Source: a virus
Taxonomy: Duplodnaviria > Heunggongvirae > Uroviricota > Caudoviricetes
DNA length: 64,000 nt
IMG/VR virus record: IMGVR_UViG_3300043464_001836
Span: 32,002 to 96,001 of that record
Direction: 5' to 3' (one strand)
A model generated the notes under the pieces. It had not been told where the DNA came from and made no database searches. It saw only the letters and a list, made by a program, of their open reading frames with translations. Positions 18,382-42,271 of this stretch are shown in pieces (position 1 is the first letter of the stretch; the number at the start of each line of letters is the position of its first letter). The translations under genes and the position numbers were made by a program.

Positions 18382-18387
18382 TATATT

Positions 18388-18510: not shown

Positions 18511-18518
18511 ACTCTGTG

Positions 18519-20275: not shown

Positions 20276-20332
20276 TTACTCCTCCAATTTTTATATTATA
20301 CTATTGGAGGAATAAAATTTCAAGCACTTTTT

Positions 20333-20422
20333 AGGAAAAGGTGAGACTCGAACTCACACACCTCTTGCGAGGCCTTCAGTTTTCAAGACTGCTGCCGCTA
20401 GGCCAACTCGGCTAACTTTTCC
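20333..20422 (-). tRNA. tRNA-Ser (UGA), class II
   Basis: Acceptor GGAAAAG/CTTTTCC, D-stem GCCG/CGGC, anticodon loop CTTGAAA, variable arm CCTC-GCAA-GAGG, T-arm GTGAG-TTCGAGT-CTCAC. Confidence 0.65.
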
Positions 20423-20426
20423 ATTG

Positions 20427-20735
20427 TTACTTAGCCCAATCTACGGCAAGCTCGTAAGCTCCATATTCGTAGTCGGACTCATGAAAGTCATCACCTTCAC
20501 TATAAGAATACTTACCAGAATACGCAGAAGCCTTCCTACACCTAGCGTCAATCATATTGTTTCTAGCGTAAAACAGTACACTTAACTGCCTTTCAGTTAG
20601 AAGCTCTCCAGCTAGAATACGCCAAGCAATTACTCCTGGTAATCCAGAGCTACCTTTCCATCCTAGAGCTAGTTTATATTCTGCTTCTGTTGCTTTACGT
20701 CTGGTTGGTGGGTTTAACTTATTAAATGCTACCAT
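20427..20735 (-). CDS. hypothetical protein
   Basis: ORF. Confidence 0.4.
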   Translation of the reverse strand: MVAFNKLNPPTRRKATEAEYKLALGWKGSSGLPGVIAWRILAGELLTERQLSVLFYARNNMIDARCRKASAYSGKYSYSEGDDFHESDYEYGAYELAVDWAK

Positions 20736-20925
20736 TAGCTTTTCTATTCAAAGTGCGCTGCCAATAGTTAAAGTGGTCTAATGCGCGTTGATACTGTTCA
20801 TACTCCCAATCCAGTAAACTTACTTCCACACTAGAATCCATTTTATCAGTTCCTAGTGCTTCGTGGATAGGTTTAACATCAAATAAGATAGTGCACGGTT
20901 CACGAACTAGCCAAAGTGTTTTCAT
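20722..20925 (-). CDS. hypothetical protein
   Basis: ORF. Confidence 0.35.
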   Translation of the reverse strand: MKTLWLVREPCTILFDVKPIHEALGTDKMDSSVEVSLLDWEYEQYQRALDHFNYWQRTLNRKANGSI

Positions 20926-21066
20926 AATGAGGATATTTAGAGTAAAGACAAGAGTTTAGTTTGAAAAGAATTTCTCGTGCAACAGTTGAATGCTTTTGTT
21001 GTGATTCTAGCTCGCTTTTTAGTGCTAGAAGGGACTTTAGCATTGTTTGTTCATCTACTAGTGTTT

Positions 21067-21375
21067 TCATATTGAGTATTCTACCAGTTTAATTCCAGCC
21101 TCTTTAATAGCCAACTTACAAATCGCGCAGGGTTCGGCATTACCAGTCGTGCCATCTTTCAAATAGCGAACTACGCTAATACGGTGAGGTTTCTCACGAC
21201 ATTTTACTAAAGCTGCAATCTCACTGTGTAGATAGATGGCTTTAGGGTTGCCGGCCAAAGCTGCGAACTTGGCTTGCTTGGGATGCGTCTTAGTGTAGCT
21301 ATTTCTAGCTTGGGCAATGATATGACCCTTCTTGTTATACACAGTAGCCACTATATGCATTCGTTGATTACACAT
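21067..21375 (-). CDS. Cytidine/deoxycytidylate deaminase-like zinc-binding protein (102 aa)
   Basis: HSEIAAL (HxE) and PCAICKLAI (PCxxC) zinc ligand motifs. Confidence 0.55.
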   Translation of the reverse strand: MCNQRMHIVATVYNKKGHIIAQARNSYTKTHPKQAKFAALAGNPKAIYLHSEIAALVKCREKPHRISVVRYLKDGTTGNAEPCAICKLAIKEAGIKLVEYSI

Positions 21376-21475
21376 TTGGTAAGTTCCCTAACTCAGAAAT
21401 AATATTATAGCGAAACTTAACAAATGGAACAACTGTGAAATTTCTGAGGTGCCTTAACACCTCAGAAATCATAGG

Positions 21476-21748
21476 TTACTTATATAGTAACTCTCTTAGG
21501 GCATTAGCCTCTAAGTCGTATTCTTTTGCCCATCTTGTGCTTTGCACCGATGTGGCCGCTTTTTCGTACAGTTGATGTGCGAATAAGGACATTTCTAGGA
21601 ATTCTTTGTGCGCGCGAAGTGCGCCGGCTGCTTCTTCTAGCAAATCTGCAATGCGATCTGGAGCGCCCTCCTGAACTGACTTTCTAGTAGGAATCTGTCT
21701 TCGGATTTCCGCGCGCTTTTCTAGACGCTCAATTAAGTCTTTTTTCAT
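21476..21748 (-). CDS. hypothetical protein
   Basis: Start moved to the internal Met (MKKDLIERLEK) so that it no longer overlaps tRNA-Cys. Confidence 0.4.
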   Translation of the reverse strand: MKKDLIERLEKRAEIRRQIPTRKSVQEGAPDRIADLLEEAAGALRAHKEFLEMSLFAHQLYEKAATSVQSTRWAKEYDLEANALRELLYK

Positions 21749-21756
21749 AAGTTTCC

Positions 21757-21830
21757 TGGAAAGAGTAGAGGGAATCGAACCCACCTGAAAGGTTTTGCAG
21801 ACCGTTACCTAGCCAATCGGACATACTCTT
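21757..21830 (-). tRNA. tRNA-Cys (GCA)
   Basis: Acceptor AAGAGTA/TACTCTT, anticodon loop CTGCAAA, T-loop TTCGATT, encoded CCA. Confidence 0.6.
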
Positions 21831-21836
21831 AGTATC

Positions 21837-21920
21837 TGGTACCCGAGGCGAGATTCGAACTCGCATGACCGAAGTCGTGAGTGCTTAAAACTCATGTGGC
21901 TGCCGTTTCACCACTCGGGC
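21837..21920 (-). tRNA. tRNA-Leu (UAA), class II
   Basis: Acceptor GCCCGAG/CTCGGGT, anticodon stem TGAGT/ACTCA, loop TTTAAGC, variable arm GAC-TTCG-GTC, T-arm GCGAG-TTCGAAT-CTCGC, encoded CCA. Confidence 0.7.
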
Positions 21921-22184
21921 AATTTCAAGTTTCAAAAGCTATTATAGCAATAGTATATACAAAAATCAACGCTATTTTTGCATACTAAAGCAATCTTTAG
22001 ATTGGTGGGACTGCTAGGTAACGATCCTAGTTCTATTGGTTAAAAGCCAATTGCTTCACCTTAAAGCTTCAATCCCTTTAATTACAGCTCCTTCAACATA
22101 CGAATCTTATCCGCACGTCGAATAGCCTTAGTTGATTTAACATGAGCACCTTGTTTACGTGAGAACATAGGTACTAGGTCTTTG

Positions 22185-22397
22185 TTACGTGGCTTCATCT
22201 ACTCTTCCTTTCAAAAATGTGAATCCTAGTTTATTAGCTTCCCACTCCATAATAAGTGAGCGTGCTGTAGCATCCCTAAATAACGTGCACTTTCTTAGCC
22301 AAATATTAACGTCATGTAGTAATTCTTCACACACGTCATCAGGTACTAGTTTCATTAGTGATCTCCAAATTGTGTAGATCCAGTATCCTTGAACCAC
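22185..22397 (-). CDS. hypothetical protein
   Basis: ORF. Confidence 0.35.
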   Translation of the reverse strand: MVQGYWIYTIWRSLMKLVPDDVCEELLHDVNIWLRKCTLFRDATARSLIMEWEANKLGFTFLKGRVDEAT

Positions 22398-22537
22398 TGT
22401 CCACGCATATTAAGCGGGGGCTTGGAAGTACTAAAACTCTGTCGAGGCTCACAGAATAAAGTCTTGAGCACTTCTTTTAGGTCTTCATCACTAAGATTGC
22501 TAGTTAGAAGTTTTGCTACAGTTTCACGGAATGTCAT
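22355..22537 (-). CDS. hypothetical protein
   Basis: Start trimmed to the internal Met MTFRETVAKLL so that it does not overlap the upstream gene. Confidence 0.35.
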   Translation of the reverse strand: MTFRETVAKLLTSNLSDEDLKEVLKTLFCEPRQSFSTSKPPLNMRGQWFKDTGSTQFGDH

Positions 22538-22547
22538 TTTGTTTTCC

Positions 22548-22772
22548 TTAAATAAATTTCCAAGAGCCTTCAATGCCTTGCGAGATACTTTCGTCTTCGT
22601 CGTCTGAGTCTTCGTAGTATGGGTATATACCGTAGGACTCTGCATTCTGCTGAGCCAAATCCCAAGCATAATCATCTAAATGCTGAGTTGTTACATCATC
22701 CTCAAACTCTACAATCTCTTTGTTGTCCATACCACAGAAGCCTGTACGACTAGTAAATTCTACTGTTTTCAT
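22548..22772 (-). CDS. hypothetical acidic protein
   Basis: ORF. Confidence 0.4.
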   Translation of the reverse strand: MKTVEFTSRTGFCGMDNKEIVEFEDDVTTQHLDDYAWDLAQQNAESYGIYPYYEDSDDEDESISQGIEGSWKFI

Positions 22773-22799
22773 TATAGTTCCTTAAATTAAAATACTAAG

Positions 22800-22873
22800 T
22801 CTAGACGGTAGGATTCGGACCTACGACAACCGCGTTCCAAACACGGGACTCTACCAGACTGAGCTACGCCTAG
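22800..22873 (-). tRNA. tRNA-Pro (UGG)
   Basis: Acceptor CTAGGCG/CGTCTAG, D-arm GCTC-AGTCTGGTAG-GAGT, anticodon stem CCGTG/CGCGG, loop TTTGGAA, T-arm GTAGG-TCCGAAT-CCTAC. Confidence 0.7.
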
Positions 22874-22892
22874 ACTTAGTACTCTATATTAT

Positions 22893-22967
22893 TGGTCCTA
22901 CGGACTAGGATCGAACTAGTGACCAACGCGTTATCAACACGCTGCTCTACCTCTGAGCTACCGTAGG
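22893..22967 (-). tRNA. tRNA-Ile (GAU)
   Basis: Acceptor CCTACGG/CCGTAGG, D-arm GCTC...GAGC, anticodon loop TTGATAA, T-arm ACTAG-TTCGATC-CTAGT, encoded CCA. Confidence 0.7.
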
Positions 22968-22974
22968 GTTTTAA

Positions 22975-23112
22975 TTACATCAAATCGTGTTCTTCAGCAA
23001 ACAAGTGATAAATGTCGTACCAAGTGTTTGCAGTATCTGACATAGGAACAGCCTTAAGATATTTGTACCAAGCATAAATCTTCATACGATGCAGATTAGC
23101 TTTTACGCTCAT
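22975..23112 (-). CDS. 45-aa hypothetical protein, paralog A (MSVKANLHRMKIYAWYKYLKAV...)
   Basis: About 85 percent identical to the ORF at 24051..24188. Class-B promoter cassette upstream. Confidence 0.4.
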   Translation of the reverse strand: MSVKANLHRMKIYAWYKYLKAVPMSDTANTWYDIYHLFAEEHDLM

Positions 23113-23173
23113 GTCACTCTCCAGTTCAGAAAAGATATTTTACAAGGTTTGTACTATTTGTTCAACTGCAAAT

Positions 23174-23244
23174 TGGTGGAGCTAAGGGGTAACTAGCCCC
23201 TGCTGAGGTTATGAAACCTAACGCTAAGTTTAACCGCTAGCCCC
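23174..23244 (-). tRNA. tRNA with CAU in an apparently 8-nt anticodon loop (Met/Ile2-like) and an atypical T-loop CTAGTTA
   Basis: Seven-bp acceptor GGGGCTA/TAGCTCC, discriminator A, encoded CCA, T-stem AGGGG/CCCCT, anticodon region TTAGG-TTTCATAA-CCTCA. Confidence 0.4.
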
Positions 23245-23253
23245 GATGATTAA

Positions 23254-23351
23254 AATGGTTGACAGGTTTCGAACCTGCGTTTCACTGGTGATTCCCACCA
23301 TACTATTTCTAGTGTGGGCCCTTGCGTACTAAACCACTATACTACAACCAT
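23254..23351 (-). tRNA. tRNA-like, 98 nt, unresolved (possible insertion)
   Basis: Acceptor ATGGTTG/CAACCAT, D-arm GTAT...GTAC and T-arm GCAGG-TTCGAAA-CCTGT, but about 20 extra nt in the anticodon region. Confidence 0.3.
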
Positions 23352-23382
23352 ATCTAAGAGGTCTGAGGAAACTGCTTAGATA

Positions 23383-23459
23383 TGGCCCGCCGGGAGGAAG
23401 TCGAATCCCCATCTAAAGAGGTAGAAGCTCTTTGCTCTAGTCCGTTAAGCTACCGGCGG
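23383..23459 (-). tRNA. tRNA-Arg (UCU)
   Basis: Acceptor CCGCCGG/CCGGCGG, anticodon stem AAGAG/CTCTT, loop CTTCTAC, encoded CCA. Confidence 0.65.
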
Positions 23460-23464
23460 AATGT

Positions 23465-23540
23465 TGGTGGGCCCGGGAGGAATCAAACCTCACGTTCTTC
23501 GTCTTATGAGGACGCCGCTTCGTCATTAAGCTACAGGCCC
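23465..23540 (-). tRNA. tRNA-Met/Ile2-type (CAU)
   Basis: Acceptor GGGCCTG/CGGGCCC, D-stem GCTT/AAGC, anticodon loop CTCATAA, atypical T-loop TTTGATT, encoded CCA. Confidence 0.55.
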
Positions 23541-23551
23541 GATAGTACTTC

Positions 23552-24019
23552 TTAATAATGATCTACTGAGTAGTAATCCCTTACTATGATTTTTCTATCA
23601 ATAATGTCTTTTCTATGACCAATCTTGCTCCCGCAAGTTCTAGAGCAAGTTACAGTTTCTTTATGACTTACTTGGTTATACGCCCGTATAAATTCATTTG
23701 AGCATATAGGACACCGTAGTAAAACTAGTCTCTTACCTTTAGAGGATTCTTTGAGATACTTCAAATTGTTTTCTTTTTTAGAAAGAATTTGTAAATTCTC
23801 TATTCTATCATCTATTTTGATATTATTAATGTGGTCTACATGCTCATCAGGATGTAATTTTCTACCTAGATGAGTAGACATTAGATACCTGGCGTATGAA
23901 GTACTAGAGCGAGCACCAGTACTAGTGTTATAAAGTACTACGGTATTCCTACCTTGCGAAGAGACTAAGTATGCATTAGTGTACTCTTCGGTATAAGGGT
24001 GTTTTATTTCTATTTTCAT
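23552..24019 (-). CDS. HNH endonuclease (second family, HNH_3/AP2-like)
   Basis: HVDHINNIKIDDRIENLQIL HNH motif plus a C-terminal CPIC...C zinc cluster. Confidence 0.65.
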   Translation of the reverse strand: MKIEIKHPYTEEYTNAYLVSSQGRNTVVLYNTSTGARSSTSYARYLMSTHLGRKLHPDEHVDHINNIKIDDRIENLQILSKKENNLKYLKESSKGKRLVLLRCPICSNEFIRAYNQVSHKETVTCSRTCGSKIGHRKDIIDRKIIVRDYYSVDHY

Positions 24020-24050
24020 TTTATTCTATTCTATTCTATTGTTAATATGT

Positions 24051-24188
24051 TTACATCAAATCGTATTCTTCAGCAAACAAGTGGTAAATATCGTACCAAG
24101 TGTTTGCAGTCTCTGACATGGGAGCGGCAGCCAAGTATTTATACCAAGCATAAATCTTCATACTACGTAGGTTAGCTTTTACGTTCAT
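24051..24188 (-). CDS. 45-aa hypothetical protein, paralog B
   Basis: MNVKANLRSMKIYAWYKYLAAA... Paralog of 22975..23112. Confidence 0.4.
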   Translation of the reverse strand: MNVKANLRSMKIYAWYKYLAAAPMSETANTWYDIYHLFAEEYDLM

Positions 24189-24456
24189 GTCATTCTCCAG
24201 TTCAGAAAAGATATTTTACAGTGAATTGAGTTTTCAAACAACGTCAGATTCTTGTATGTGCTATATCAAGTCTTTGCACATCATAGCTATCCTAGTGAAG
24301 TTTTGTACTCCTTGTGCACTAAGGGTTTCATCTTTAAGACTAAATTCTGCCAGAGCGAGTGTATCTTGTAACGTTTTCAGGCTTTCTTGTAGATCACTCA
24401 TGTCTTTCTCCATTTCAGAAAAGATATTTTACAGTGAATTACGCGTTCAAACAACG

Positions 24457-24915
24457 TCAAATAAACCAGCTAGGAACCTCGGTCTTCCAAGTGCAGAAGT
24501 ATGCTTTGTCTTTCTTATAGTATTCCCTATAAGCAGTAACTACGTCTAGATGCTTATACTCATCTGGTACACATTTAGGTGGCTCGGTAAACTCTGTACT
24601 AGTAAACGTAGGCAGCTCTAGTTCGTTGCGTACTACTAGGTAGGACTTATGATCTCTACCAGAGTAACGTTTCTTATATTCTAGATTTAGCTGCTCTTGT
24701 AAGTCGACTAGATAGAAGAAGTTAGCTTCAGACTTTCTAGTCCATATAGCACACGGATGGTTAGCATGAGTAGGCTTATAAGGGCCAACTCCTAGTAGTT
24801 GATGGGTAGTGGTTGAAAGAAGCTGCGCGTACTCTAGAATCATCTTAACTACGTGCTTATCACAATGATAAGCAGCACAGCGCTTAATGTCTGTATCTAG
24901 GTAAAAGATATTCAC
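24457..24915 (-). CDS. hypothetical protein
   Basis: ORF. Confidence 0.45.
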   Translation of the reverse strand: MNIFYLDTDIKRCAAYHCDKHVVKMILEYAQLLSTTTHQLLGVGPYKPTHANHPCAIWTRKSEANFFYLVDLQEQLNLEYKKRYSGRDHKSYLVVRNELELPTFTSTEFTEPPKCVPDEYKHLDVVTAYREYYKKDKAYFCTWKTEVPSWFI

Positions 24916-25160
24916 TTTTTTCCAATCTTAGAGGATAACTCAGCCTTACTAGCACGCAGCTTATCTAGGAAGCCATAGTAACTACGAAGGTATAACTCTC
25001 TGACGTCAGCACTTTCTTCCTGCTTAAGTAACTCAATAGCGGCAAGTATCCTTTTCTCTTCTTCGCTATGTCTAGTAAGGTTGGCTTTCAGTCCTATTGG
25101 TTTTAGGTCACAGAAGTAGCTAGCCATTTTATTCACTCCACAAAAGTTCAAGCATGTCAT
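24912..25160 (-). CDS. hypothetical protein
   Basis: ORF. Confidence 0.4.
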   Translation of the reverse strand: MTCLNFCGVNKMASYFCDLKPIGLKANLTRHSEEEKRILAAIELLKQEESADVRELYLRSYYGFLDKLRASKAELSSKIGKK

Positions 25161-25335
25161 CAGCTATTTTATACATCTCAGGGTCCATACGTTCCATACC
25201 GGCTTCCAAAGAATCACTACAAAGGTAGTGGTCGGTATGACGATCCCAAGCACGCTCTAGCGTATTTCTAATAAACTCACGGAGGTTTGAAAATTCCCCT
25301 TCGGTCAAAATAAAGTCTTCACCTTGTTTACGCAT
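25129..25335 (-). CDS. hypothetical protein
   Basis: ORF. Confidence 0.4.
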   Translation of the reverse strand: MRKQGEDFILTEGEFSNLREFIRNTLERAWDRHTDHYLCSDSLEAGMERMDPEMYKIADDMLELLWSE

Positions 25336-25460
25336 TTCAGTCTTCCTTAATCAGTTAATAAAGATATTATACGCACTTGTATAAAACTAAACAACCTTAT
25401 AAATTTGGGGTCGAGGCGCAGAAAAAGGCTCCGAAGAGCCTTTACTGTTAAATCACTTTG

Positions 25461-26279
25461 CTACATAATTTCAAATTTATTACTCTTACTTAAGTTCTCC
25501 CTAGCTGGGAGATGTTGTAGATTAAATTCACAATGAAGTCCGCATACTAAGCTACTTTGTAGTGGAACTATATGGTCTACATGATACCCCTCTGGGCAGG
25601 TTTGATAAATTTCTTTTATAGCTATCAAATTTGCCCACTTTGGAGTCGCCTGTAACTTAGCAGCTCTACGTTTAGCGCTTTTTGCTGCAAATAAGTACTT
25701 ATTATTTTGGTAGTATAGCTTAATACTCTCTTTATTATGTAGTCTGTAGATGCGTTGTTTTTCTAATATGTCTTCTTTATTATTCTGATAGTGTACTTGC
25801 TTTTTCTTATGTAAAGAAGAAGCATTAAGTACATTATACTCTTTGAGGTACCTAGATATCTCATCCCTATTAGTTACTCTGTACTCTCTATCGCAGCTTT
25901 TACACTTACTTTGTCTGGAGCTTCTAGCATAATAGTTACTAAAGCGATCCAGGTCTAAAATAGAGTTACAGCAGGGGCACCTCTTTTTACCTACTAGGGA
26001 TAAAAAGTAGATGAACCACATTCTACCTTCCTTATCAGCAACAATATCAGGATACTTAGACCTTATAGACCTATTAAGATTAACTCCACAGGTGTACCCA
26101 CAGTACGTTGCTAATTGCTCCATACTACCTACTTTTATATCTAAAGCTTTTTCAATGAAGTGCACCCATAATATGTGTTTAGGTCTTTGTTTACTATATT
26201 TTGGGAGAAATACTTCACCAATATTAAACCTACTTACTAAGTAAGAATAAATTTTACTAACTAGAGTGTTATCTATCAT
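25461..26279 (-). CDS. HNH homing endonuclease (family 1 paralog)
   Basis: Shared C-terminal HNH module. Confidence 0.8.
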   Translation of the reverse strand: MIDNTLVSKIYSYLVSRFNIGEVFLPKYSKQRPKHILWVHFIEKALDIKVGSMEQLATYCGYTCGVNLNRSIRSKYPDIVADKEGRMWFIYFLSLVGKKRCPCCNSILDLDRFSNYYARSSRQSKCKSCDREYRVTNRDEISRYLKEYNVLNASSLHKKKQVHYQNNKEDILEKQRIYRLHNKESIKLYYQNNKYLFAAKSAKRRAAKLQATPKWANLIAIKEIYQTCPEGYHVDHIVPLQSSLVCGLHCEFNLQHLPARENLSKSNKFEIM

Positions 26280-26386
26280 ATTATGCCTCCTTCGGCATTC
26301 ACAAGAGGGTAACCTCTTGCTTATCTTTTAAGAAATATGAGAAAAGTTTCTAGTTAGAACTTTACTAGAAGTGCAACATATTTTAT

Positions 26387-26466
26387 TGGTGGAGCATATC
26401 AGGATCGAACTGATCTGTTCTTCCTCGGTGCAAGCGAGGTAGCCACGCCAAGCAGCCCCATGCCCC
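26387..26466 (-). tRNA. tRNA-Ala (UGC)
   Basis: Acceptor GGGGCAT/ATGCTCC with a G3:U70 pair, anticodon stem CCTCG/CGAGG, loop CTTGCAC, T-arm ATCAG-TTCGATC-CTGAT, encoded CCA. Confidence 0.55.
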
Positions 26467-27524: not shown

Positions 27525-29420
27525 TTTTATTCCTTAACTGAATACTTAGGCTAGATAGTGAGTTAAGCACTATCAGGGGAGCTACCCTTTTCGCCTTAAT
27601 TGGATGCGGCCGAGCGTACCGCCCGCTCTCCCTTTTGGGATATGAGCCCAAAGTCTGACTATCAGAAGCCGCAATTAATTCTACTAAGTAAAGCCCCTTA
27701 TACTTACTAGCTACGGGATAGTGACCGTACTATTACGTTATAAGTGTTGCCGGTACGCCTATCAACCGGCAGTTGCGCAGATATTCCTAATGTGGTTAAT
27801 TACGCCTATAGGATTATCATAAGCTTTGCTTTACTTAGTAAAACTGGGTAATGAGATGAAGTTTGTAACAGACTCAGTATAAACCTAGGATAAGTTTAGG
27901 GTCCTAGAACTGACATTTATACTGTACTAGTACTTGGTCTACTAGCTGACTACAACATTGGATAACCGTTGAGGTTATCCATCTCTTTATCATATAGAAG
28001 TAGCTGTTACACACGCAGCACTACCCATACGGTCGTTACGGCTAGAATCTTGGGATATTTAGAATTATCAAGATTAGCCTAGAGTCGACCGTTTCATGGC
28101 ATTTCAGCCAATCGTCAGTAGGTTTGTTTGTCCGATTAATACTGGTTTCATATCGGGAGGTTGCTAGTACACCAGTCCTATACCTAGTCATTATAAGGGT
28201 GTGCGTCAGACTAGGAGTTGAGCACAACAATCTCTAAATTTCAGTCTAGCTTTGAGGTACTAGAACAGACGCGCGGTATTAATTCGCCTAGAGTACTCAC
28301 GCGTTACCTCTAGGTAGAGGATAGGTGCTAAGGATACCAACCCTTAGTCTTTCATAATGTTATTGCACAAAGTGGGTTTACACCTATTTAGAAGTACCTG
28401 CTATTAAGACTTCCTAGCTTCCTCTGCCTGCAAAGCATTTCCACTAGTAGTTTCTTAAAATACGCCATACATTCAGTGATCCCGTACCCTCACGCTTGCA
28501 GACATAAGGTGTCCCGTACCAGTATATAGTCTTTGGTCGTACTGCAAATACTTCTAAATAATACTCTTTTCGTGAGTAACTCGCACTTCGTAACCGAGAA
28601 GTGTAGCAGCCTAGGTATATGGATTCTTTCCCTAGAGTCACTAGATTAACATTTCTGCTAATTGCCACACAGCGGAGCCTACTAATAATTTCGGACGCTC
28701 TGTACTAGTGTCTTAAAAGCTAGGGTGGCTGCGCTTGGCATAAACCCAGAAGGGTTTGTTCCTTTTAACACTAACCAGGGTTAGTGCCCTAACTCAGAAA
28801 TAATATTATACGACCTTAATCAAAGAATTTCAAGTTCAAAATCAGGAAAGTCTGCTTCAGTTTCTTGAGGAATAAAGCCTCGTTCAATCATGTCAAAGTA
28901 AACTACATCGTGCATATCAGCCGGAACAGAGAATTCGCCGAAAGACATTTTGTTATTCCTTCATCAAGTTAGAAAAGATATTTTACAGCACTTAAGACTT
29001 TGAAGCAACATCAAATTTCTGAACCGTAACAACCAGGAAGTTGCATCCCTTCGTTTCAGTAGCCGTTTACTCCGTCTTGCTTAGGACAGTGATTACAATT
29101 CAGAATTGATATTTTACAGTGTTTAACTTACTAGAACAACATCAGAATTTAGCGGTTGGCCCAGAGTTCCGCTTCACGCAAAAGACCTGCATCAACCAGC
29201 TCCCAATATCGACGATCAAACATGTTGAACTCCTTAATTCATTTCAGAAAAGATATTTTACAGCGTTTGACTTATTAGAACAACGTCAAAATTCTCAAGT
29301 TAGATGCCTAGCATGAAAGAGTAATACCACGGGACCTTTGACAATGGCACAGGATATTAGAGCTTACTAGTGTCGCCTTTGTATGTCAACTCAGGCTTTG
29401 ACGGTCTCTAGGAGATTTGT

Positions 29421-29568
29421 CATCTAACTTTAGAATCCCAGTTATTCGATCTGGGAACGCTTACTCGCTCAGGCTTTCGCGTGGAGCAGTAATTCATCTA
29501 ACTTTAGAATCCCAGTTATTCGATCTGGGAACGCTTACTCGCTCAGGCTTTCGCGTGGAGCAGTAATT
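29421..29568. repeat. Perfect tandem duplication, 2 x 74 bp
   Basis: Unit CATCTAACTTTAGAATCCCAGTTATTCGATCTGGGAACGC... occurs twice head to tail. It is followed by the class-B promoter cassette. Confidence 0.8.
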
Positions 29569-29634
29569 CATTTCAGAAAAGATATTTTACAGCGTTTGAC
29601 TTGTTACAACAACGTCAAAATTCTAAACTAGGGA

Positions 29635-29748: not shown

Positions 29749-30429
29749 TTAATCGACTTCAAATTTGTTACCCTTACTTAAGTTCTCACTAGCAGGTAAA
29801 TGTTGTAGGTTGAATTCGCAGTGTAAACCACATACTAGCTTACCTTGTAGGGGTACTATGTGATCTACATGGTACCCCGGAGGGCATGTTTGGTAAATTT
29901 CTTTTATAGTTACCAAGTTTGCCCACTTTGGGGTGGCTTTCAGTTTGGTAGCTCTGTATTTTGCTTTCTTTGCAAAATACATATATTTATGTATATAATA
30001 GTGATTTCTACTAGAAATATTTAGTATGGTTTTGTTTATTTTGTAATAAATCTTATGTCTACTAGAGTCGCACTCTTTACATATAGTATGCACTTTATAG
30101 TTTACATCTCGTATATTACGAGAGTAATAGCTCAAAGGCTTAACTTCTACGCATTTTGTGCAGACTCTATAACCAACAGTGTATAATAACCAAGCTCTAT
30201 AACTTTTTATAATTTTTGGCTTACTAAGGAAGATTTTATCCCTGAAACCTTTGAATCCACCATCACCTAACCTAGAGTACCCTAATTCTTTTGCTAAGTT
30301 GGAGTTGTCTTCATTTATAAGAGCTTCTATTAGACGTGCTTTATCTATGTTCTTTGTATTTCTAGGTATCGGTACACCTAATTTATCTATAGCTACGCTT
30401 AGTAGCTCTCTTACTGTATCTTCATTCAT
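29749..30429 (-). CDS. HNH homing endonuclease (family 1 paralog)
   Basis: Shared HNH module. The conserved leader lies upstream. Confidence 0.8.
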   Translation of the reverse strand: MNEDTVRELLSVAIDKLGVPIPRNTKNIDKARLIEALINEDNSNLAKELGYSRLGDGGFKGFRDKIFLSKPKIIKSYRAWLLYTVGYRVCTKCVEVKPLSYYSRNIRDVNYKVHTICKECDSSRHKIYYKINKTILNISSRNHYYIHKYMYFAKKAKYRATKLKATPKWANLVTIKEIYQTCPPGYHVDHIVPLQGKLVCGLHCEFNLQHLPASENLSKGNKFEVD

Positions 30430-30626: not shown

Positions 30627-31052
30627 TTAATCTACCTTAGGTTCAACAAACTGAAACTCACGTCCAGGCTTCGTAATTAGGGCTAGCTTATTACGAATCT
30701 TATCTTCTAGAATAGGGTCAGCGAAACCAAAGTCATCTTGAATGCTCATATCAACGATGGGCTTATCCAAGTCAAAGTCTGCTAGCAAACCTTCAACTAC
30801 GTCGGCTACTAACACGTCAGCACAGAGAATTAAGTCTGCCCACTCTAGATGCACTTGGTCGATAGGGATTAGTGCAAAGTCAGCAGTAGAGCCAACTGCA
30901 CGAGGATTTACATTATCAAAGTCACGGGTGAGCACTCGTGCCATCGTAGGGCTGCGAAGCAAGCCCGCAGAACAGACGCAAAGAACTCGTACAGAGTCAC
31001 CTTGAAACCGATTGTGACAATTTCCTAGACGATTACGGGTTACGTTAGACAT
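30627..31052 (-). CDS. Low-molecular-weight protein-tyrosine-phosphatase/ArsC-like protein
   Basis: N-terminal P-loop VLCVCSAGLLRS (C-x5-R-S), with conserved Asp residues downstream. Confidence 0.45.
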   Translation of the reverse strand: MSNVTRNRLGNCHNRFQGDSVRVLCVCSAGLLRSPTMARVLTRDFDNVNPRAVGSTADFALIPIDQVHLEWADLILCADVLVADVVEGLLADFDLDKPIVDMSIQDDFGFADPILEDKIRNKLALITKPGREFQFVEPKVD

Positions 31053-31407: not shown

Positions 31408-31467
31408 AGTGTTCTCCAGTTCAGAAAAGATATTTTACGTCAATTGGAGCACTATGGCAACACTAAA

Positions 31468-31608
31468 TTATTGGGATTTAATCACTTGCGTAGTTTGTTG
31501 AGCTGACTCTAACTTGTTAAACGCAGGTGCTACAATAGCTACTAGAATACCTAGAATAGCTATTACGATAATAAGTTCAATTAGTGTGAAACCATTAGCG
31601 ACCGACAT
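31468..31608 (-). CDS. Type IV prepilin-like peptide (46 aa)
   Basis: MSVANGFTLIELIIVIAILGILVAIVAPAF: class III signal (G|FTLIEL with Glu at +5) followed by a hydrophobic helix. Not in the ORF track. Confidence 0.45.
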   Translation of the reverse strand: MSVANGFTLIELIIVIAILGILVAIVAPAFNKLESAQQTTQVIKSQ

Positions 31609-32404
31609 TTACTAGTGCTCCAGTGTTAGAAGGCATAACTACGGTATGAGTACCTTGACCAGCGAACTTAGCTTGCGCTTCAATCGCTTTAATCTGTACC
31701 AGATTGCCAGTAAGAGACTCAGCAATTAGACGGTTAGAGGTTGCTTCACCTTGAGCTTCTACAATCTTTCGAGCAGCCTCAGCCTCTGCTAGTTTTAGTT
31801 CTAGCTGTTTGGCCTCAATCTGCTTCTGCATTTGCACAGAGGCCTGAATGCTCTTTTCTAGTGCAGGGTCGGTTAGTAGCTGACGTACTACTGCACGAGT
31901 AACCGTATAGACACCCGGGTCACTCTTGTTCAGGTCATCTTGAATTTTCTTGGTAATTGCAGACTCTAGTTCATCACGCTTAGAGTGAATAGTTAGAGAG
32001 TCGAAGTCAGCAGCAGTACTATAAATAGCACCACGGGTGATACGCTCTACTAGAAAATAGCCAGACGCCCAGACGCCGGAATCTAGCTGACCGGCCATGC
32101 CTTGGTATTTAATACGCTGTTCAGCAATTTGACCAGGAGCAACCTTATAAAAGACACTAACGTCTAGGTCTTGTAAGGAAAGGTTATCCTTAGCTTTAGG
32201 ACGCATGTCGTTCATCTGAAGTTCTACTTCCTTGGTAGTGAATTCATCTACGCTAGTAAGGAAGGCACCATACCAGCCAGGGTTGACTTCAGTACTTTCA
32301 ATGGCTTTGTTAAAGTCGGTACGTACACCTACGTTACCAGTTTCAATACGACCACAGCCGATTAGGGTGGATGCTACTGCGATTGCTAGAATTAGTTTTT
32401 TCAT
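31595..32404 (-). CDS. SPFH/band-7 (stomatin/prohibitin-like) lipoprotein
   Basis: Signal peptide with lipobox LIGC, SPFH core and a coiled-coil C-terminus (AEAEAARKIVEAQGEA). Confidence 0.65.
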   Translation of the reverse strand: MKKLILAIAVASTLIGCGRIETGNVGVRTDFNKAIESTEVNPGWYGAFLTSVDEFTTKEVELQMNDMRPKAKDNLSLQDLDVSVFYKVAPGQIAEQRIKYQGMAGQLDSGVWASGYFLVERITRGAIYSTAADFDSLTIHSKRDELESAITKKIQDDLNKSDPGVYTVTRAVVRQLLTDPALEKSIQASVQMQKQIEAKQLELKLAEAEAARKIVEAQGEATSNRLIAESLTGNLVQIKAIEAQAKFAGQGTHTVVMPSNTGALVNVGR

Positions 32405-32587
32405 TTAGATTCCTGAGATATTGTTAATGAGCATTACGATGGAAATAAGTACACCAGCAATAACTGCTGAGTACGCTACGGATTTTAATAGGCGAGTTGA
32501 CCATTTACGGTCGGCTTTTTCTGCTGTACGCCACATATGTACAGCTGCTCCTGAAAGGAGCCATACTAGGATGAATTTTGCAATCAT
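32405..32587 (-). CDS. small two-helix membrane protein (possible NfeD-like partner of the SPFH protein)
   Basis: Sixty aa with two hydrophobic segments, immediately upstream of the SPFH gene. Confidence 0.4.
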   Translation of the reverse strand: MIAKFILVWLLSGAAVHMWRTAEKADRKWSTRLLKSVAYSAVIAGVLISIVMLINNISGI

Positions 32588-32590
32588 AAA

Positions 32591-32920
32591 TTAACCAAAA
32601 GAAGTATAACCAAAAGAAAGAATTTCGCGCTTTAGTGCTAGAATATTGGAAGCTGACTCTTCGTCTGCATAATTGGACACTAGACCAATAAGGTCTACCC
32701 TGTCATCTATCCATAGATCATCAGCTACTTGGAAAAGATTACGGCTAGGAGCCATAAGAGTATGGTTGATATAAACTCCACTATTAACCGCGAGCTCAAA
32801 GTCGGCCCAGCGTACGTCTACATTAATAAGAGCATCCGCAAAGTATCTTTTCAACTCTTTTTGAGTATTCTCTCGCTCGACTGCTAATGCTTGAATATAA
32901 GATTTCATGGCTTTCTCCAT
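32591..32920 (-). CDS. hypothetical protein
   Basis: ORF. Confidence 0.4.
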   Translation of the reverse strand: MEKAMKSYIQALAVERENTQKELKRYFADALINVDVRWADFELAVNSGVYINHTLMAPSRNLFQVADDLWIDDRVDLIGLVSNYADEESASNILALKREILSFGYTSFG

Positions 32921-33104
32921 TTCAGAAAAGATATTTTACAGTTTCTTAGGTTCTCTATCAACCACAAAATTCCGGTATTGAATGTCTTCAATTACCCACC
33001 ACTTTTCATCATCAGAGAAGTTAAGCCAAGCAGCAATTTCACCAGTTGTACGAAGACAGCTAATGCAGTAGCCTTCCACTAACGTACATTTATTAATACA
33101 AGGG

Positions 33105-33740
33105 CTATTTATCATCGTTCCACATTAAGAATAGAGCGTTACAAATTACGTGCGCTAGGTGCGATTTCTGCGATTCGGGGTCTTCTTTCTCCCCAGACAC
33201 ATATGATACAATGTGTCTAAGAATAGCCTTCTCATAGCGGTCACGTTCTACTTTCTGCCAATTATCTCTAGAGTACTTAGTAGCTCCGAACTCTAGTACT
33301 TCTACTACTGGTTCTAGCTGCTTCCAAGGAATTAAAGTCCAATCTAGCTTACCGGAGTCGTGCTTTACTCCTTTTTTCACACTAGCCAACTTAGTTAAAA
33401 CCGTATCATCTAGCACAGGTAACGTATTGTCTATAGTAGGTAAGCTACTAATATCGTCTGGCAATTCATAATTTGCTTTTGGAGTATTAGTGACTGCTTG
33501 TACACTAGATGGAATCCTGCCTGTAATAATTCCTGGGTAGGGGTTTGTAATAGTTAAAGGTGAAATTTTAGTAGTAAACGAAGATTTTGCTACTGTTGAC
33601 TCTACTAATTCCTTAAAGTTACTGCCATTAGTACAGGTAGAACATACTGTACTAGCACTAGTAAACAAGTAACAATACTCGCAACCACGATTTTTAGGCT
33701 GCTGCATACAAGCTCCTTTCATCAAAATGAATATTCTCAA
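33105..33740 (-). CDS. hypothetical protein with an N-terminal Cys cluster and a C-terminal nucleotide-pyrophosphohydrolase-like (MazG/DUF550-like) segment
   Basis: CEYCY...CSTC zinc-ribbon-like N-terminus. C-terminal LEFGATKYSRDNWQK...SHLAHVICNALFLMW resembles phage NTP-PPase domains (weak). Confidence 0.35.
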   Translation of the reverse strand: MRIFILMKGACMQQPKNRGCEYCYLFTSASTVCSTCTNGSNFKELVESTVAKSSFTTKISPLTITNPYPGIITGRIPSSVQAVTNTPKANYELPDDISSLPTIDNTLPVLDDTVLTKLASVKKGVKHDSGKLDWTLIPWKQLEPVVEVLEFGATKYSRDNWQKVERDRYEKAILRHIVSYVSGEKEDPESQKSHLAHVICNALFLMWNDDK

Positions 33741-34443
33741 AACCGTAACCCCTAGGATTACAAATAAACTTAGTTCCTAGGTACTCTTCACAGTAGCTAT
33801 CATGAGTATGACCAAATAGCCAAATTTTAGGTACCCTGTAGATTACATCTAGTAGCTCTGCTGCATTAGAACTAAACATGCAGTTCTCCACTATATGCTT
33901 ATACTTAGGGTGGGTAAACTTACGACTAGGAACAAAGTGAGTTACTAGGATATCAAAGTCATTACTAGAAATCCAATCCATTGTATCTCTATATTCTTGC
34001 ATCCAGGAGTCAGTAGTCATACATTTAATATAACGTATGTCGTTTGTATAATCCTTTCCTAGAATAACTGAAACAGGGTTACCTTCATCCATGCTAGACC
34101 ATAGAGTAGCTCCCCCAATTCTTACACCTTCAATGTCTACCCACTCTTTCTCAAGAATATATACATTCTCGTTTACTAGCATGTCTAGACTTTCAGACGC
34201 TACACGCCAATCATGGAAACCCCAATAGTCATGGTTTCCTAGAACAGCTACTACATGCTTGAATCGCTTGGACATTTCATTTAGCCAGTCGGCAGTATTA
34301 ATAATACTACGGCCTGTCCAAATATCCCCAGCAACGATTAGAGTAGTTTCGGAGTCTTCATCTAGACGCTTTGGGGTCCATAATGGTTTTCGATTAGCAT
34401 AGTCAAAGTCTAGATGTAAATCACTAAATATACGATATTTCAT
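33694..34443 (-). CDS. Metallophosphoesterase (calcineurin-like)
   Basis: Motifs DLHLD, GDIW and GNHD. Confidence 0.7.
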   Translation of the reverse strand: MKYRIFSDLHLDFDYANRKPLWTPKRLDEDSETTLIVAGDIWTGRSIINTADWLNEMSKRFKHVVAVLGNHDYWGFHDWRVASESLDMLVNENVYILEKEWVDIEGVRIGGATLWSSMDEGNPVSVILGKDYTNDIRYIKCMTTDSWMQEYRDTMDWISSNDFDILVTHFVPSRKFTHPKYKHIVENCMFSSNAAELLDVIYRVPKIWLFGHTHDSYCEEYLGTKFICNPRGYGFENIHFDERSLYAAA

Positions 34444-41676: not shown

Positions 41677-42236
41677 GCCACTATAAAGGGAGGGATCCAT
41701 TTGATCCTAAATGTGCTTGTGGTAGCAATAAGTTCTCTGATGAGTGTACTTGCAACATCTCCACAACTCAAGGTAGAAGTATGATTCACTACGAACAAGG
41801 CGATGTATTCGCCAGCCTGCCAAAGGCCTGTATCTTTGTACACGGCTGTAATGCACAACGTACTATGGGTTCTGGAGTAGCTAAGGTTATTAAAGACCGC
41901 TATCCAGAAGTTTACTATGGCTACCTAACTATGGTAATGAACCTAGGTATGGTCTCTATAGTCAAGTTAGAAGAGCAGGTATTTTGTAACGCTATCACAC
42001 AGCAGTACTATGGTAGAGATCCTAATCGCTGCTACGTTGACTATAGAGCAGTAGAGGATGCACTAGCAAAGGTAGCTACTATTGCTAGAACTCTAGAACT
42101 TCCGGTTTACATGCCCTTCATTGGTGGTGGTCTAGGTGGTGGAGATAGGCTAGTATTAAGCCAAATCTTCGAGAGCGTCTTCTGGGAAGTTGAGGTGCAT
42201 ATTTTTTCACTTGAATCTGCACCAATTTCCGCGTAA
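41673..42236 (+). CDS. Macro-domain (ADP-ribose-binding/processing) protein with an N-terminal Cys-rich zinc ribbon
   Basis: VHGCNAQRTMGSGVAKVI (macro NAAN-GGGV-like block) and PFIGGGLGGG (macro Gly-rich loop). N-terminal CACGSNKFSDECTC. Confidence 0.5.
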   Translation: MSHYKGRDPFDPKCACGSNKFSDECTCNISTTQGRSMIHYEQGDVFASLPKACIFVHGCNAQRTMGSGVAKVIKDRYPEVYYGYLTMVMNLGMVSIVKLEEQVFCNAITQQYYGRDPNRCYVDYRAVEDALAKVATIARTLELPVYMPFIGGGLGGGDRLVLSQIFESVFWEVEVHIFSLESAPISA

Positions 42237-42271
42237 AATATCTTTTCTGAAATGAATTAAGGACTAAAACT

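What the first reader, a model, noticed from the sequence alone, without database searches (positions are those of the whole stretch)
31468..32587. Prepilin-like peptide, SPFH lipoprotein and small membrane protein trio
A 46-aa ORF with a textbook type-IV-pilin class III signal (G|FTLIELIIVIAILGILVAIV) overlaps the start of an SPFH/band-7 lipoprotein (lipobox LIGC). That lipoprotein is followed by a 60-aa two-helix membrane protein (NfeD-like partner position). Phage SPFH or lipoprotein modules are often superinfection-exclusion or envelope-remodelling factors. A pilin-like peptide could interfere with host type IV pilus or type II secretion assembly, or be processed by the host prepilin peptidase.
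Basis: inference. Interest (0 to 1): 0.55.

Follow-up and report, generated by a model that had tools for sequence, protein, structure and literature searches.

The report
Phage SPFH cage genes with mini-pilin
A large uncultured phage carries an early-expressed gene set (a small two-helix membrane protein, a lipid-anchored prohibitin-like SPFH protein and a 46-residue "headless" pilin) that recurs in many unrelated phages and probably interferes with the host's type IV pilus or type II secretion machinery, though no function has been tested.

Summary
All lie on the minus strand in the order 105-109-aa ORF, 60-aa two-TM protein, 269-aa SPFH lipoprotein, 46-aa prepilin-like ORF. The 46-aa ORF overlaps the 3' end of the SPFH gene by 14 nt. 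Two copies of a nine-fold repeated sigma70-like promoter/leader bracket the set.

The mini-pilin passes the Pfam and TIGRFAM prepilin thresholds. Relatives whose SPFH is 75-99% identical keep it at the same position and length. Its N-terminal part is under purifying selection and its tail evolves almost freely.

The two-TM plus SPFH-lipoprotein pair is a conserved module, found in Kuttervirus (small gene unannotated there), many metagenomic phages and some Betaproteobacteria. It is not NfeD.

Short pilins (32-97 mature residues) sit just downstream of Band_7 genes of several subtypes in about a quarter of sampled phage mini-pilin clusters (10/41, against 2/62 for full-length pilins). None was found next to 46 bacterial orthologues. 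I found no paper describing this link. Truncated phage PilA-like proteins were noted in 2026 but not tested.

The most likely function is early interference with host type IV filament assembly, giving superinfection exclusion. This is inferred, not shown.

The parts
32933..32961 (-). Sigma70-like promoter (TTGATA, 17 nt, TAAAAT) that heads the transcription unit
   Evidence: Promoter scan, 10/12 match. It is part of a conserved repeat aligned.
32913..32939 (-). Copy of the 27-nt repeat GTAAAATATCTTTTCTGAAMTGGAGAA, holding the -10 box, a conserved leader and the Shine-Dalgarno GGAG
   Evidence: 9 copies in the window with at most 3 mismatches, against 0 expected in shuffles. Alignment of the copies with flanks.
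32591..32920 (-). First gene of the unit: an acidic soluble protein of 105-109 aa (the likely true start is the second ATG, at 32908). It is variable between relatives and is not part of the conserved module.
   Evidence: ORF list. No Pfam, PHROG or NCBIfam hit. Called as 105 aa in L003. Replaced by an unrelated 61-62-aa basic protein in L037 and L038.
32405..32587 (-). Small two-TM hairpin membrane protein (60 aa, basic loop, conserved C-terminus LINNISGI). Its stop codon abuts the SPFH start codon (TAAATG), which suggests translational coupling.
   Evidence: A 55-72-aa two-TM ORF lies directly upstream of the SPFH lipoprotein gene in nearly all phage loci examined. In bacteria it accompanies the lipobox form, not the TM-anchored form.
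31595..32404 (-). Prohibitin-like SPFH/Band_7 lipoprotein (269 aa). Signal peptide MKKLILAIAVASTLIG|C, SPFH core, long coiled-coil helix, C-terminal tail.
   Evidence: Pfam Band_7. phrog_200. PDB profile hit to prohibitin, E 3e-7. AF2 model pLDDT 80.9. Foldseek full-length matches to prohibitin, erlin, HflK/C, stomatin and QmcA cages, E down to 3e-14. dN/dS 0.02-0.15.
31468..31608 (-). Mini-pilin: 46-aa prepilin-type peptide, MSVANG|FTLIELIIVIAILGILVAIVAPAFNKLESAQQTTQVIKSQ. It has G-1, F1, E5, G14 and P22 but no globular head. Its ATG overlaps the SPFH 3' end by 14 nt, with GGAG 9 nt upstream.
   Evidence: Orthologues of 45-46 aa at the identical position in L037, L038 and L039. N-terminal part pN 0.22-0.27 against pS 0.74-0.79; tail omega 0.7-1.1.
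31412..31438 (-). Next copy of the 27-nt promoter/leader repeat (-35 TTGCCA at 31455-31460). It starts the following unit and marks the downstream boundary of the cassette.

Best explanation
**Shown or well supported**
- The region is one early-type transcription unit of a large, uncultured, tRNA-rich phage.
- Its conserved core is a two-gene module. A small two-TM inner-membrane hairpin protein is translationally coupled to a lipid-anchored, extracytoplasmic, prohibitin-like SPFH protein. That protein has every structural element of the cage-forming SPFH proteins.
- Attached to this module is a 'mini-pilin': a prepilin-type leader plus the hydrophobic alpha1-N helix of a type IVa pilin or T2SS pseudopilin, followed by only about 15 polar residues.

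**Proposed mechanism (inferred)**
1. Soon after infection, host RNA polymerase transcribes the unit.
2. The mini-pilin inserts into the inner membrane and is cleaved and N-methylated by the host prepilin peptidase.
3. As a headless subunit it competes with host pilins at the type IV pilus (or type II secretion) assembly platform. This poisons or remodels the filament.
4. The infected cell stops offering functional pili to superinfecting pilus-dependent phages and to the phage's own progeny.

**Role of the SPFH module (weakest step)**
The SPFH cage with its two-TM partner is proposed to organise or shelter the membrane patch where this happens. Alternatively it contributes a separate envelope-protecting activity.
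For: **Identity**
- Prepilin motif above curated cutoffs.
- G14 and P22 present (read from the sequence).
- SPFH fold and full-length similarity to cage-forming SPFH proteins.
- Invariant lipobox.

**The mini-pilin is a real gene**
- It is kept at the same place and length in phages whose synonymous sites are saturated.
- G|FT.IE is retained and the N-terminal part has low pN/pS.
- E5 is conserved in orthologues found by position rather than by motif.

**Early expression**
- A sigma70-like promoter/leader occurs 9 times in the tRNA and nucleotide-metabolism region and brackets the unit.

**Linkage between SPFH and mini-pilin**
- In 307 kb of window plus SPFH-anchored loci, every prepilin-motif ORF lies just downstream of the SPFH gene.
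- Further SPFH-anchored examples: L040, L043, L033 and L168.
- From the pilin side, 10/41 de-replicated short-pilin clusters have a same-strand Band_7 gene within 1.5 kb, against 2/62 long-pilin clusters (Fisher p = 0.0015). These include lipoprotein, TM-anchored and flotillin-like SPFH types.
- Of three short pilins chosen from the global search for their short length and similar polar tails, without knowledge of their context, two sit behind a two-TM plus SPFH-lipoprotein pair.
- None of 46 bacterial orthologue loci has a mini-pilin beside it.

**Two-TM partner**
- It co-varies with the lipobox form of the SPFH protein.

**Precedent**
- Prophage P-FimU is incorporated into pili and blocks phages. 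Truncated PilA of about 60 aa occurs in virulent Pseudomonas phages, with assembly inhibition suggested (PMC12952977).
Against: - No experiment or expression data exist for any member.
- The host is unknown, so the presence of a type IV pilus, T2SS or prepilin peptidase is assumed.
- T4P and T2SS cannot be told apart: the GspG and PilA models score alike.
- About four in five SPFH-lipoprotein phage lineages, including all Kuttervirus, lack a mini-pilin. About three in four mini-pilins lack an SPFH neighbour. Each part can therefore work alone.
- No known biology links SPFH proteins with pilins. Deleting all nine SPFH genes in P. aeruginosa left swimming and swarming unchanged, and the authors concluded there is no major role in type IV pilus function (PMC13086221).
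- The +2 residue after the lipid-modified Cys is Gly. By the E. coli rule (my own knowledge) this predicts outer-membrane sorting, which sits awkwardly with an inner-membrane two-TM partner.
Confidence: 0.45

Rival explanations
1. The SPFH lipoprotein and its two-TM partner mimic HflK/C or prohibitin. They would enclose or regulate the host membrane protease FtsH, or another membrane client. This would stabilise phage membrane proteins or rewire envelope quality control. The mini-pilin would be a client or cargo of that cage rather than an agent acting on pili.
For: - Best structural and profile matches are prohibitin and HflK/C.
- The protein faces the periplasm, as HflK/C does (PMC2636767).
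- Bacterial orthologues are chromosomal p-prohibitins of Betaproteobacteria.
- The module exists without a mini-pilin in most phages.
Against: - It does not explain why the partner peptide so often carries a strict prepilin signal with E5, G14 and P22 rather than any TM helix.
- It does not explain why the pairing is confined to phages.
- There is no evidence of contact with FtsH.
Confidence: 0.2
2. The genes are functionally independent envelope 'morons'. They merely collect in the same early, accessory part of phage genomes, and the adjacency carries no mechanistic meaning.
For: - Patchy co-occurrence in both directions.
- The first gene of the unit is swapped between close relatives, showing local mosaicism.
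- Neighbouring genes are a mixed bag.
Against: - The order and strand (SPFH, then mini-pilin) and the distances of 0-1 kb recur across SPFH proteins of different subtypes and very low identity.
- There is a 14-nt or similar overlap in several lineages.
- Enrichment over full-length pilins.
Confidence: 0.2
3. The cassette is part of the lysis system, for example a spanin-, holin- or signal-anchor-release-like membrane set.
For: - It combines small membrane proteins with a lipoprotein.
- There is a weak PHROG hit of the signal peptide to Cor (E 0.037).
Against: - No endolysin or holin lies nearby.
- The promoter is of the early sigma70 type and sits in the tRNA and nucleotide-metabolism region.
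- The lipoprotein is a 269-aa SPFH fold, not an o-spanin.
- The peptide carries a specific prepilin motif.
Confidence: 0.03
4. The 46-aa ORF is a chance ORF or a decaying fragment of a captured pilin gene, and is not translated.
For: - It is very short.
- At E <= 0.001, the indexed homologue search found only the identical protein.
- All other contigs carrying this exact 46-aa sequence are 100% identical in DNA.
Against: - The ORF stays open at 45-46 codons, with the motif intact, in three diverged lineages where pS is 0.66-0.77.
- It has a Shine-Dalgarno sequence at suitable spacing.
- Comparable short pilins are common in phage contigs and metagenomes.
Confidence: 0.03

Closest known systems
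Phage-encoded pilus components: P-FimU of F10-like Pseudomonas prophages, P-PilA, and the 'truncated PilA' family (N-terminal ~60 residues) of virulent Pseudomonas phages (Sztanko et al., Cell Rep 2026, PMC12952977)
   Same: A phage gene encodes a prepilin-type protein that is expected to enter the host type IV pilus pathway. The truncated family is likewise head-less and found in virulent phages. The authors propose either incorporation without a phage-binding surface or inhibition of assembly.
   Different: - P-FimU is a full-length minor pilin that keeps the pilus functional and works by changing the receptor surface.
- The window's peptide has no head and is shorter (40 mature residues).
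- It is linked to an SPFH module, which that paper's main text does not mention.
Naturally short pilins: Geobacter/Desulfuromonadales truncated PilA (about 60 mature residues) and Flp/Tad type IVc pilins (about 40-60 mature residues)
   Same: They show that a pilin consisting of little more than the N-terminal helix can be processed and polymerised (PMC5174107, listed; Flp biology from my own knowledge).
   Different: - These are cellular structural pilins with dedicated machineries.
- Flp pilins have a G/XXXXEY motif and their own peptidase, whereas the window peptide has the T4a/T2SS motif G|FTLIE.
- Neither is linked to SPFH genes.
Cage-forming SPFH complexes: HflK/C-FtsH, prohibitin PHB1/2, erlin, stomatin, QmcA-YbbJ
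   Same: The same fold and domain order (SPFH core, long coiled-coil helix, C-terminal segment). The protein faces the extracytoplasmic side, as HflK/C and prohibitin do. It is encoded next to a small membrane partner.
   Different: - It is anchored by a lipid rather than a TM helix.
- It is a single SPFH gene rather than a K/C pair.
- The partner is a 60-aa hairpin without an OB fold.
- It is phage-encoded.
- No protease link has been shown.
NfeD-SPFH operons (YbbJ-QmcA, YqiJ-YqiK, YuaF)
   Same: A membrane-embedded protein encoded directly beside, and probably co-translated with, an SPFH protein.
   Different: - NfeD is defined by a C-terminal OB-fold domain and partners with cytoplasm-facing stomatin- or flotillin-type SPFH proteins. 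No NfeD was found for p-prohibitins (PMC2636767).
- The 60-aa protein has no such domain.
Phage superinfection-exclusion membrane proteins and lipoproteins (T5 Llp, Cor, T4 Imm/Sp) and phage inhibitors of type IV pili (Pf PfsE, D3112 Tip, DMS3 Aqs1)
   Same: Early- or prophage-expressed small envelope proteins that stop further phage entry. PfsE, Tip and Aqs1 do this by switching off type IV pili (my own knowledge; reference titles listed).
   Different: None is pilin-like or SPFH-like. They bind a receptor, PilB or PilC directly.

Membership tests
Prepilin-type (class III signal) proteins / type IV pilins and pseudopilins | N-terminal methylation/cleavage motif scoring above curated thresholds (PF07963, TIGR02532) | tested here: met
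   33.6 bits against 21.2. 35 bits against 16.3.
Prepilin-type (class III signal) proteins / type IV pilins and pseudopilins | Short leader ending in Gly-1, hydrophobic +1 (Phe), Glu+5, and an uninterrupted hydrophobic helix of about 20 residues with G14 and P22 | tested here: met
   MSVANG|FTLIELIIVIAILGILVAIVAP, read. The same features are kept in orthologues L037, L038 and L039.
Prepilin-type (class III signal) proteins / type IV pilins and pseudopilins | C-terminal globular alpha/beta head domain | tested here: not met
   Only about 15 polar residues follow the helix. The mature length is 40 aa, against 127-205 aa for most full-length pilins in the same scan.
Prepilin-type (class III signal) proteins / type IV pilins and pseudopilins | Cleavage and N-methylation by a prepilin peptidase, and assembly by a type IV filament machine | not testable with these tools
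   The host is unknown and there are no experimental data.
Flp/Tad (type IVc) pilins | Flp motif G/XXXXEY after the cleavage site | tested here: not met
   The sequence after Gly is FTLIELII, with no EY. The best NCBIfam matches are GspG, PilA and PpdD.
SPFH / Band_7 superfamily (prohibitin-like branch) | Band_7 domain above the Pfam gathering score | tested here: met
   50.3 bits against 23.6.
SPFH / Band_7 superfamily (prohibitin-like branch) | SPFH core followed by a long coiled-coil helix and a C-terminal segment, as in the cage-forming members | tested here: met
   AF2 model: strands and helices at 17-178, helix 180-230, helix 233-249. Full-length Foldseek matches to prohibitin, erlin, HflK/C, stomatin and QmcA.
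SPFH / Band_7 superfamily (prohibitin-like branch) | Assembly into a multimeric ring or cage on a membrane | not testable with these tools
   Only a monomer could be modelled.
Bacterial lipoproteins (signal peptidase II substrates) | Basic n-region, hydrophobic h-region and lipobox [LVI][ASTVI][GAS]C near residue 15-25 | tested here: met
   MKKLILAIAVASTLIGC. L14, G16 and C17 are invariant in A1, and C17 is at least 90% conserved in A2.
NfeD | C-terminal soluble OB-fold domain (Pfam NfeD) after the membrane helices | tested here: not met
   No Pfam, NCBIfam or meaningful PHROG hit. Most of the 60 residues are taken up by two hydrophobic helices and a basic loop.
NfeD | Encoded adjacent to, and co-transcribed with, an SPFH gene | tested here: met
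   The stop codon abuts the SPFH start. The adjacency is conserved across phages.
Phage truncated P-PilA family (PMC12952977) | [quoted passage not shown] | tested here: inconclusive
   The architecture fits.
Spanins / lysis cassette | Small outer-membrane lipoprotein with an inner-membrane partner, next to holin and endolysin genes and expressed late | tested here: not met
   The lipoprotein is a 269-aa SPFH fold. The neighbours are nucleotide-metabolism genes. The promoter is of the early sigma70 type.

The most novel reading that the evidence does not exclude
SPFH cages and head-less pilins form a previously unrecognised, phage-specific two- or three-component system that hijacks the host type IV filament machinery. 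The cage, with its two-TM partner, corrals prepilin-peptidase-processed mini-pilins or the host pilin pool in the inner membrane. This shuts down or re-purposes pili or type II secretion during infection. It would be a new mechanistic class of superinfection exclusion or host takeover, and the first functional link between SPFH scaffolds and type IV filaments.
Probability: 0.25. Interest if true: 0.75.

Novelty: new variant of a known kind. Interest (0 to 1): 0.62.

Why it matters
**Pilin mimics.** Phage-encoded pilin mimics have only just been shown to work as anti-phage devices. Their truncated forms are still untested. This locus supplies an extreme, well-conserved example (40 mature residues) together with a large set of relatives.

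**SPFH link.** It ties the mini-pilins to SPFH scaffold proteins, whose functions in bacteria and phages are largely unknown. If the link is functional, it gives a testable handle on two questions:
- what phage SPFH proteins do. This includes the unstudied SPFH lipoprotein found in over 150 sequenced Salmonella and E. coli phage genomes, mostly Kuttervirus-like;
- how a minimal alpha1-N peptide can disable or rewire type IV pili or type II secretion.

**Annotation.** The work also exposes a conserved small gene that is missing from the GenBank Kuttervirus record examined.

Tried and rejected
**Searches that led nowhere**
- Megablast of the region against GenBank phages: no match.
- tblastn of the 46-aa peptide, of a PAK PilA N-terminus and of an L043-type mini-pilin against GenBank phages: nothing useful. 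Likely causes are the low-complexity filter or bacterial contigs filed as phage.
- Indexed homologue searches for the 46-aa and 60-aa proteins: only self-matches.
- PADLOC: no hit for any of the four proteins.
- Metagenome scan with the SPFH alignment: only 5 loci.
- Supplementary table of PMC12952977: not held.
- Base-composition profile of the region: nothing unusual.

**Readings rejected**
- NfeD identity for the 60-aa protein: no OB fold.
- Spanin or lysis role.
- Flp-type pilin.
- Receptor replacement in the manner of P-FimU: there is no head domain, and the tail evolves nearly neutrally.
- A pure cleavage decoy is considered less likely than engagement with the assembly machinery. E5, which to my knowledge is not needed for cleavage, is conserved in orthologues found by position.

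**Method limits**
- dN/dS from the four other contigs carrying this exact 46-aa sequence was impossible, because they are 100% identical in DNA.
- My first crude detector for the upstream two-TM ORF failed on GC-rich bacterial loci and was replaced.
Full report
**1. What is in the sequence**

All relevant ORFs lie on the minus strand. In the direction of transcription the order is:
- a 105-109-aa ORF (32920/32908 to 32591);
- a 60-aa ORF (32587 to 32405);
- a 269-aa ORF (32404 to 31595);
- a 46-aa ORF (31608 to 31468).

The 60-aa stop codon directly abuts the 269-aa start codon (TAAATG). The 46-aa ATG lies 14 nt inside the 3' end of the 269-aa gene, with GGAG 9 nt upstream.

The small membrane protein precedes the SPFH gene. 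The pilin-like ORF overlaps the end of the SPFH gene, not its start.

**2. The transcription unit**

A 27-nt sequence, GTAAAATATCTTTTCTGAAMTGGAGAA, occurs nine times in the window, against none in shuffled sequence. Each copy is preceded by a TTGnnn hexamer at 17-nt spacing from TAAAAT and followed by a start codon. It therefore looks like a repeated sigma70-type promoter with a conserved leader and ribosome-binding site.

Copies at 32913-32939 and 31412-31438 bracket the four genes. No terminator-like site was found in the gap between the last gene and the next promoter.

The surrounding region carries 14 tRNA genes. It also carries a MazZ-like dATP/dGTP diphosphohydrolase, a DUF1289 protein and a metallophosphatase. 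That is the look of an early or host-takeover region in a large phage.

GenBank phages hold no close DNA relative. The same DNA, 100% identical, occurs in several metagenome assemblies. One protein of the set is on a 114-kb contig.

**3. The 46-aa ORF is a real, conserved mini-pilin**

It passes the curated thresholds of Pfam N_methyl and TIGR02532. It is the only such motif in six-frame translation of the window.

The sequence MSVANG|FTLIELIIVIAILGILVAIVAPAF... has Gly-1, Phe+1, Glu+5, Gly14 and Pro22. These are the hallmarks of type IVa pilins and T2SS pseudopilins (my knowledge of the family). It ends 40 residues after the predicted cleavage site, so there is no head domain.

Phages whose SPFH protein is 99%, 75% and 76% identical (L039, L037, L038) carry a 46-, 46- and 45-codon ORF at exactly the same overlapping position.

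Selection analysis:
- Synonymous sites are saturated (pS 0.66-0.77).
- The motif and helix codons change little (pN 0.22-0.27; omega about 0.1-0.15 where it can be computed).
- The tail evolves almost freely (omega 0.7-1.1).
- Between the window and L039, the SPFH protein differs at 0.6% of non-synonymous sites and the mini-pilin at 8.8%.

**4. The SPFH lipoprotein and its two-TM partner are the conserved core**

The 269-aa protein matches Band_7 and phrog_200. It is about 35% identical to the 'SPFH domain band 7 family protein / lipoprotein' found in 181 GenBank phage records, mostly Salmonella and E. coli phages; the example I inspected is a Kuttervirus.

A profile of the family hits prohibitin in the PDB. 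An AlphaFold model (pLDDT 80.9) matches prohibitin, erlin, HflK/C, stomatin and QmcA over its full length. It therefore has the SPFH core, the long wall helix and the C-terminal segment of the cage-forming members.

The lipobox is invariant. The first strand of the fold starts only about three residues after the lipid-modified Cys.

In nearly every phage locus examined, a 55-72-aa two-TM ORF with a basic loop sits directly upstream. This includes the GenBank Kuttervirus record I examined, where the ORF is not annotated.

In bacterial genomes, mostly Betaproteobacteria:
- 28 orthologues have an N-terminal TM anchor, and none of these has a credible hydrophobic two-TM ORF upstream (the automated screen flagged two candidates, which I judged spurious);
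- 11 have a lipobox, and at least five of these have the partner (also L042).

This co-variation and the abutting stop and start codons argue that the hairpin supplies the membrane-spanning part of a lipid-anchored SPFH complex.

It is not NfeD. It has no family hit and no room for an OB fold.

**5. The recurrent link between SPFH and mini-pilin**

*Starting from SPFH genes.* A short prepilin-type ORF lies downstream on the same strand in:
- the window clade;
- L040 (SPFH 59% identical; one small membrane gene lies in between);
- L043 (56%);
- L033 (41%);
- L168 (45%).

About twenty other lineages, including Kuttervirus, lack it. In 307 kb of window plus SPFH-anchored loci, no prepilin motif occurs anywhere else.

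*Starting from pilin motifs.* Two back-translated patterns recovered 131 IMG/VR loci. Mature lengths are bimodal: 45 complete short ORFs (32-97 aa) and 83 of normal pilin size. After de-replication, 10 of 41 short clusters have a same-strand Band_7 gene within 1.5 kb, against 2 of 62 long clusters (Fisher p = 0.0015).

The SPFH partners are of different kinds:
- lipoprotein with a two-TM partner (L014, L048, L056, L106);
- lipoprotein without a detected upstream two-TM ORF (L130);
- TM-anchored (L076, L142, L154, L057);
- flotillin-like (L007, L055, L107).

From a full HMMER scan of 1.84 billion proteins (1,172 hits; roughly a third of the listed 150 are 100 aa or shorter), I picked three short hits by length and tail composition, without knowing their context. 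Two lie directly behind a Band_7 gene (L236, L238). In L236 the Band_7 protein carries a lipobox and is preceded by a 65-aa hydrophobic ORF of the two-TM type.

None of 46 bacterial orthologue loci has a mini-pilin.

Many SPFH-linked mini-pilins share a small Cys-bracketed C-terminal motif, C.[EA]G[YF]KF...C. The window clade and L076 have lost even that.

I found no paper that mentions SPFH together with pilins and phages.

**6. How it most likely works**

Shown:
- the identities of the parts;
- their conservation;
- the promoter architecture;
- the statistical linkage.

Inferred:
1. The unit is expressed early from a host-type promoter.
2. The mini-pilin is inserted and processed by the host prepilin peptidase.
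3. Through its alpha1-N helix and E5 it engages the type IV pilus or T2SS assembly platform as a head-less subunit that poisons or remodels the filament.
4. This yields superinfection exclusion and spares progeny from adsorbing to infected cells.

The selection pattern (N-terminus constrained, tail free) fits an assembly poison or competitor. It does not fit receptor replacement of the P-FimU kind (PMC12952977).

The role of the SPFH pair is the weakest step. Possibilities are a scaffold or shelter for the mini-pilin or for host pilins, an HflK/C-like control of FtsH, or an independent envelope function. Which membrane the lipoprotein occupies is unresolved (Gly at +2).

**7. Comparison and novelty**

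The closest known things are:
- the phage P-FimU and P-PilA proteins, with the untested truncated PilA family of virulent Pseudomonas phages;
- naturally short pilins (Geobacter, Flp);
- the HflK/C-prohibitin cages;
- SPFH-NfeD operons.

The mini-pilin is a member of the prepilin-signal class but fails the head-domain criterion of a full pilin. The SPFH protein is a member of the Band_7 superfamily. The hairpin is not NfeD.

The conserved two-TM plus SPFH-lipoprotein pairing and its repeated coupling to mini-pilins in phages appear to be undescribed. I rate this a new variant of a known kind, with interest 0.62.

**8. Caveats**
- IMG/VR may include bacterial flanks, which are the likely source of many long pilins.
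- My motif filter requires E5, so E5 conservation is meaningful only for the orthologues found by position.
- Lineage counts are approximate.
- There are no functional data.

Noticed in passing
window 15491-15517, 23117-23143, 24193-24219, 24406-24432, 29235-29261, 29564-29590, 31412-31438, 32913-32939 (all minus strand); 42233-42259 (plus strand): A 27-nt repeat holding a -10 TAAAAT box, a conserved leader ATCTTTTCTGAA and, in six copies, the SD GGAG followed closely by ATG. Upstream there is a conserved aaTTTgaCGTTGtt -35 region. It looks like a family of phage early promoters with a shared 5' UTR. Three copies have AATTA in place of GGAGAA.
   Followed up: partly
L001 2280-2498 (GenBank MT074479.1, about 64446-64664) and L022 4789-4998: Kuttervirus genomes have an unannotated 69-72-aa two-TM ORF (MIGLIRYLFIFVISTF...IYIFEGVH). 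It ends at the start codon of the annotated SPFH lipoprotein gene, so a conserved small gene is missing from the GenBank annotation examined.
   Followed up: partly
window 33105-33740, 32936-33115, 33694-34443 (minus strand): Directly upstream of the cassette lie three genes: a MazZ-like dATP/dGTP diphosphohydrolase domain protein with a Cys-rich N-terminal extension, a DUF1289 protein and a metallophosphatase. The MazZ-type domain is the one used in 2-aminoadenine (Z-genome) phages. No PurZ was looked for.
   Followed up: no
window 13568-26466 (minus strand): A cluster of 14 tRNA genes (His, Met x2, Gln, Leu x2, Tyr, Ser, Cys, Lys, Pro, Ile, Arg, Ala), interspersed with small ORFs and copies of the promoter repeat.
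   Followed up: no
window 30627-31052 (minus strand): This 141-aa ORF contains VLCVCSAGLLRSP. That resembles the CX5R(S/T) P-loop of low-molecular-weight phosphotyrosine phosphatases or ArsC. It has no Pfam or PHROG hit at E < 0.1.
   Followed up: no
window 29749-30429 (minus strand); L039 3590-4303: A 226-aa ORF with an HNH-like motif (HVDHIVPLQ...NLQHLPASENLSKGNK) lies downstream of the cassette. In the 99%-SPFH relative L039, the corresponding position holds a 237-aa protein with a weak GIY-YIG hit. This suggests mobile endonuclease turnover at the site.
   Followed up: no
L221 about 6338 and L226 about 6467 (Acidiferrobacteraceae MAGs): Two bacterial loci with the two-TM plus SPFH-lipoprotein pair also have a pilin-motif ORF resembling FimT/GspH, about 2.5 kb downstream on the same strand (144 residues after the cleavage site in L221, at least 101 in L226). 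This is the only pilin found near a bacterial orthologue.
   Followed up: no
L047, L048, L056, L098, L106, L115, L116, L130, L137, L146, L040, L043: A sub-family of phage mini-pilins (64-93 aa) shares a C-terminal Cys-bracketed motif, C.[EA]G[YF]KF...G.G[VI].C. It is reminiscent in size of the disulfide-bonded loop of type IVa pilins. Several members are SPFH-linked and several are not.
   Followed up: partly
L006, L008, L068, L084: Another group of phage mini-pilins, with acidic low-complexity tails, sits between genes for MKIK.DFVTNSSS... proteins and an SbcD/Mre11-like metallophosphatase. This is a second recurrent context, unrelated to SPFH.
   Followed up: no
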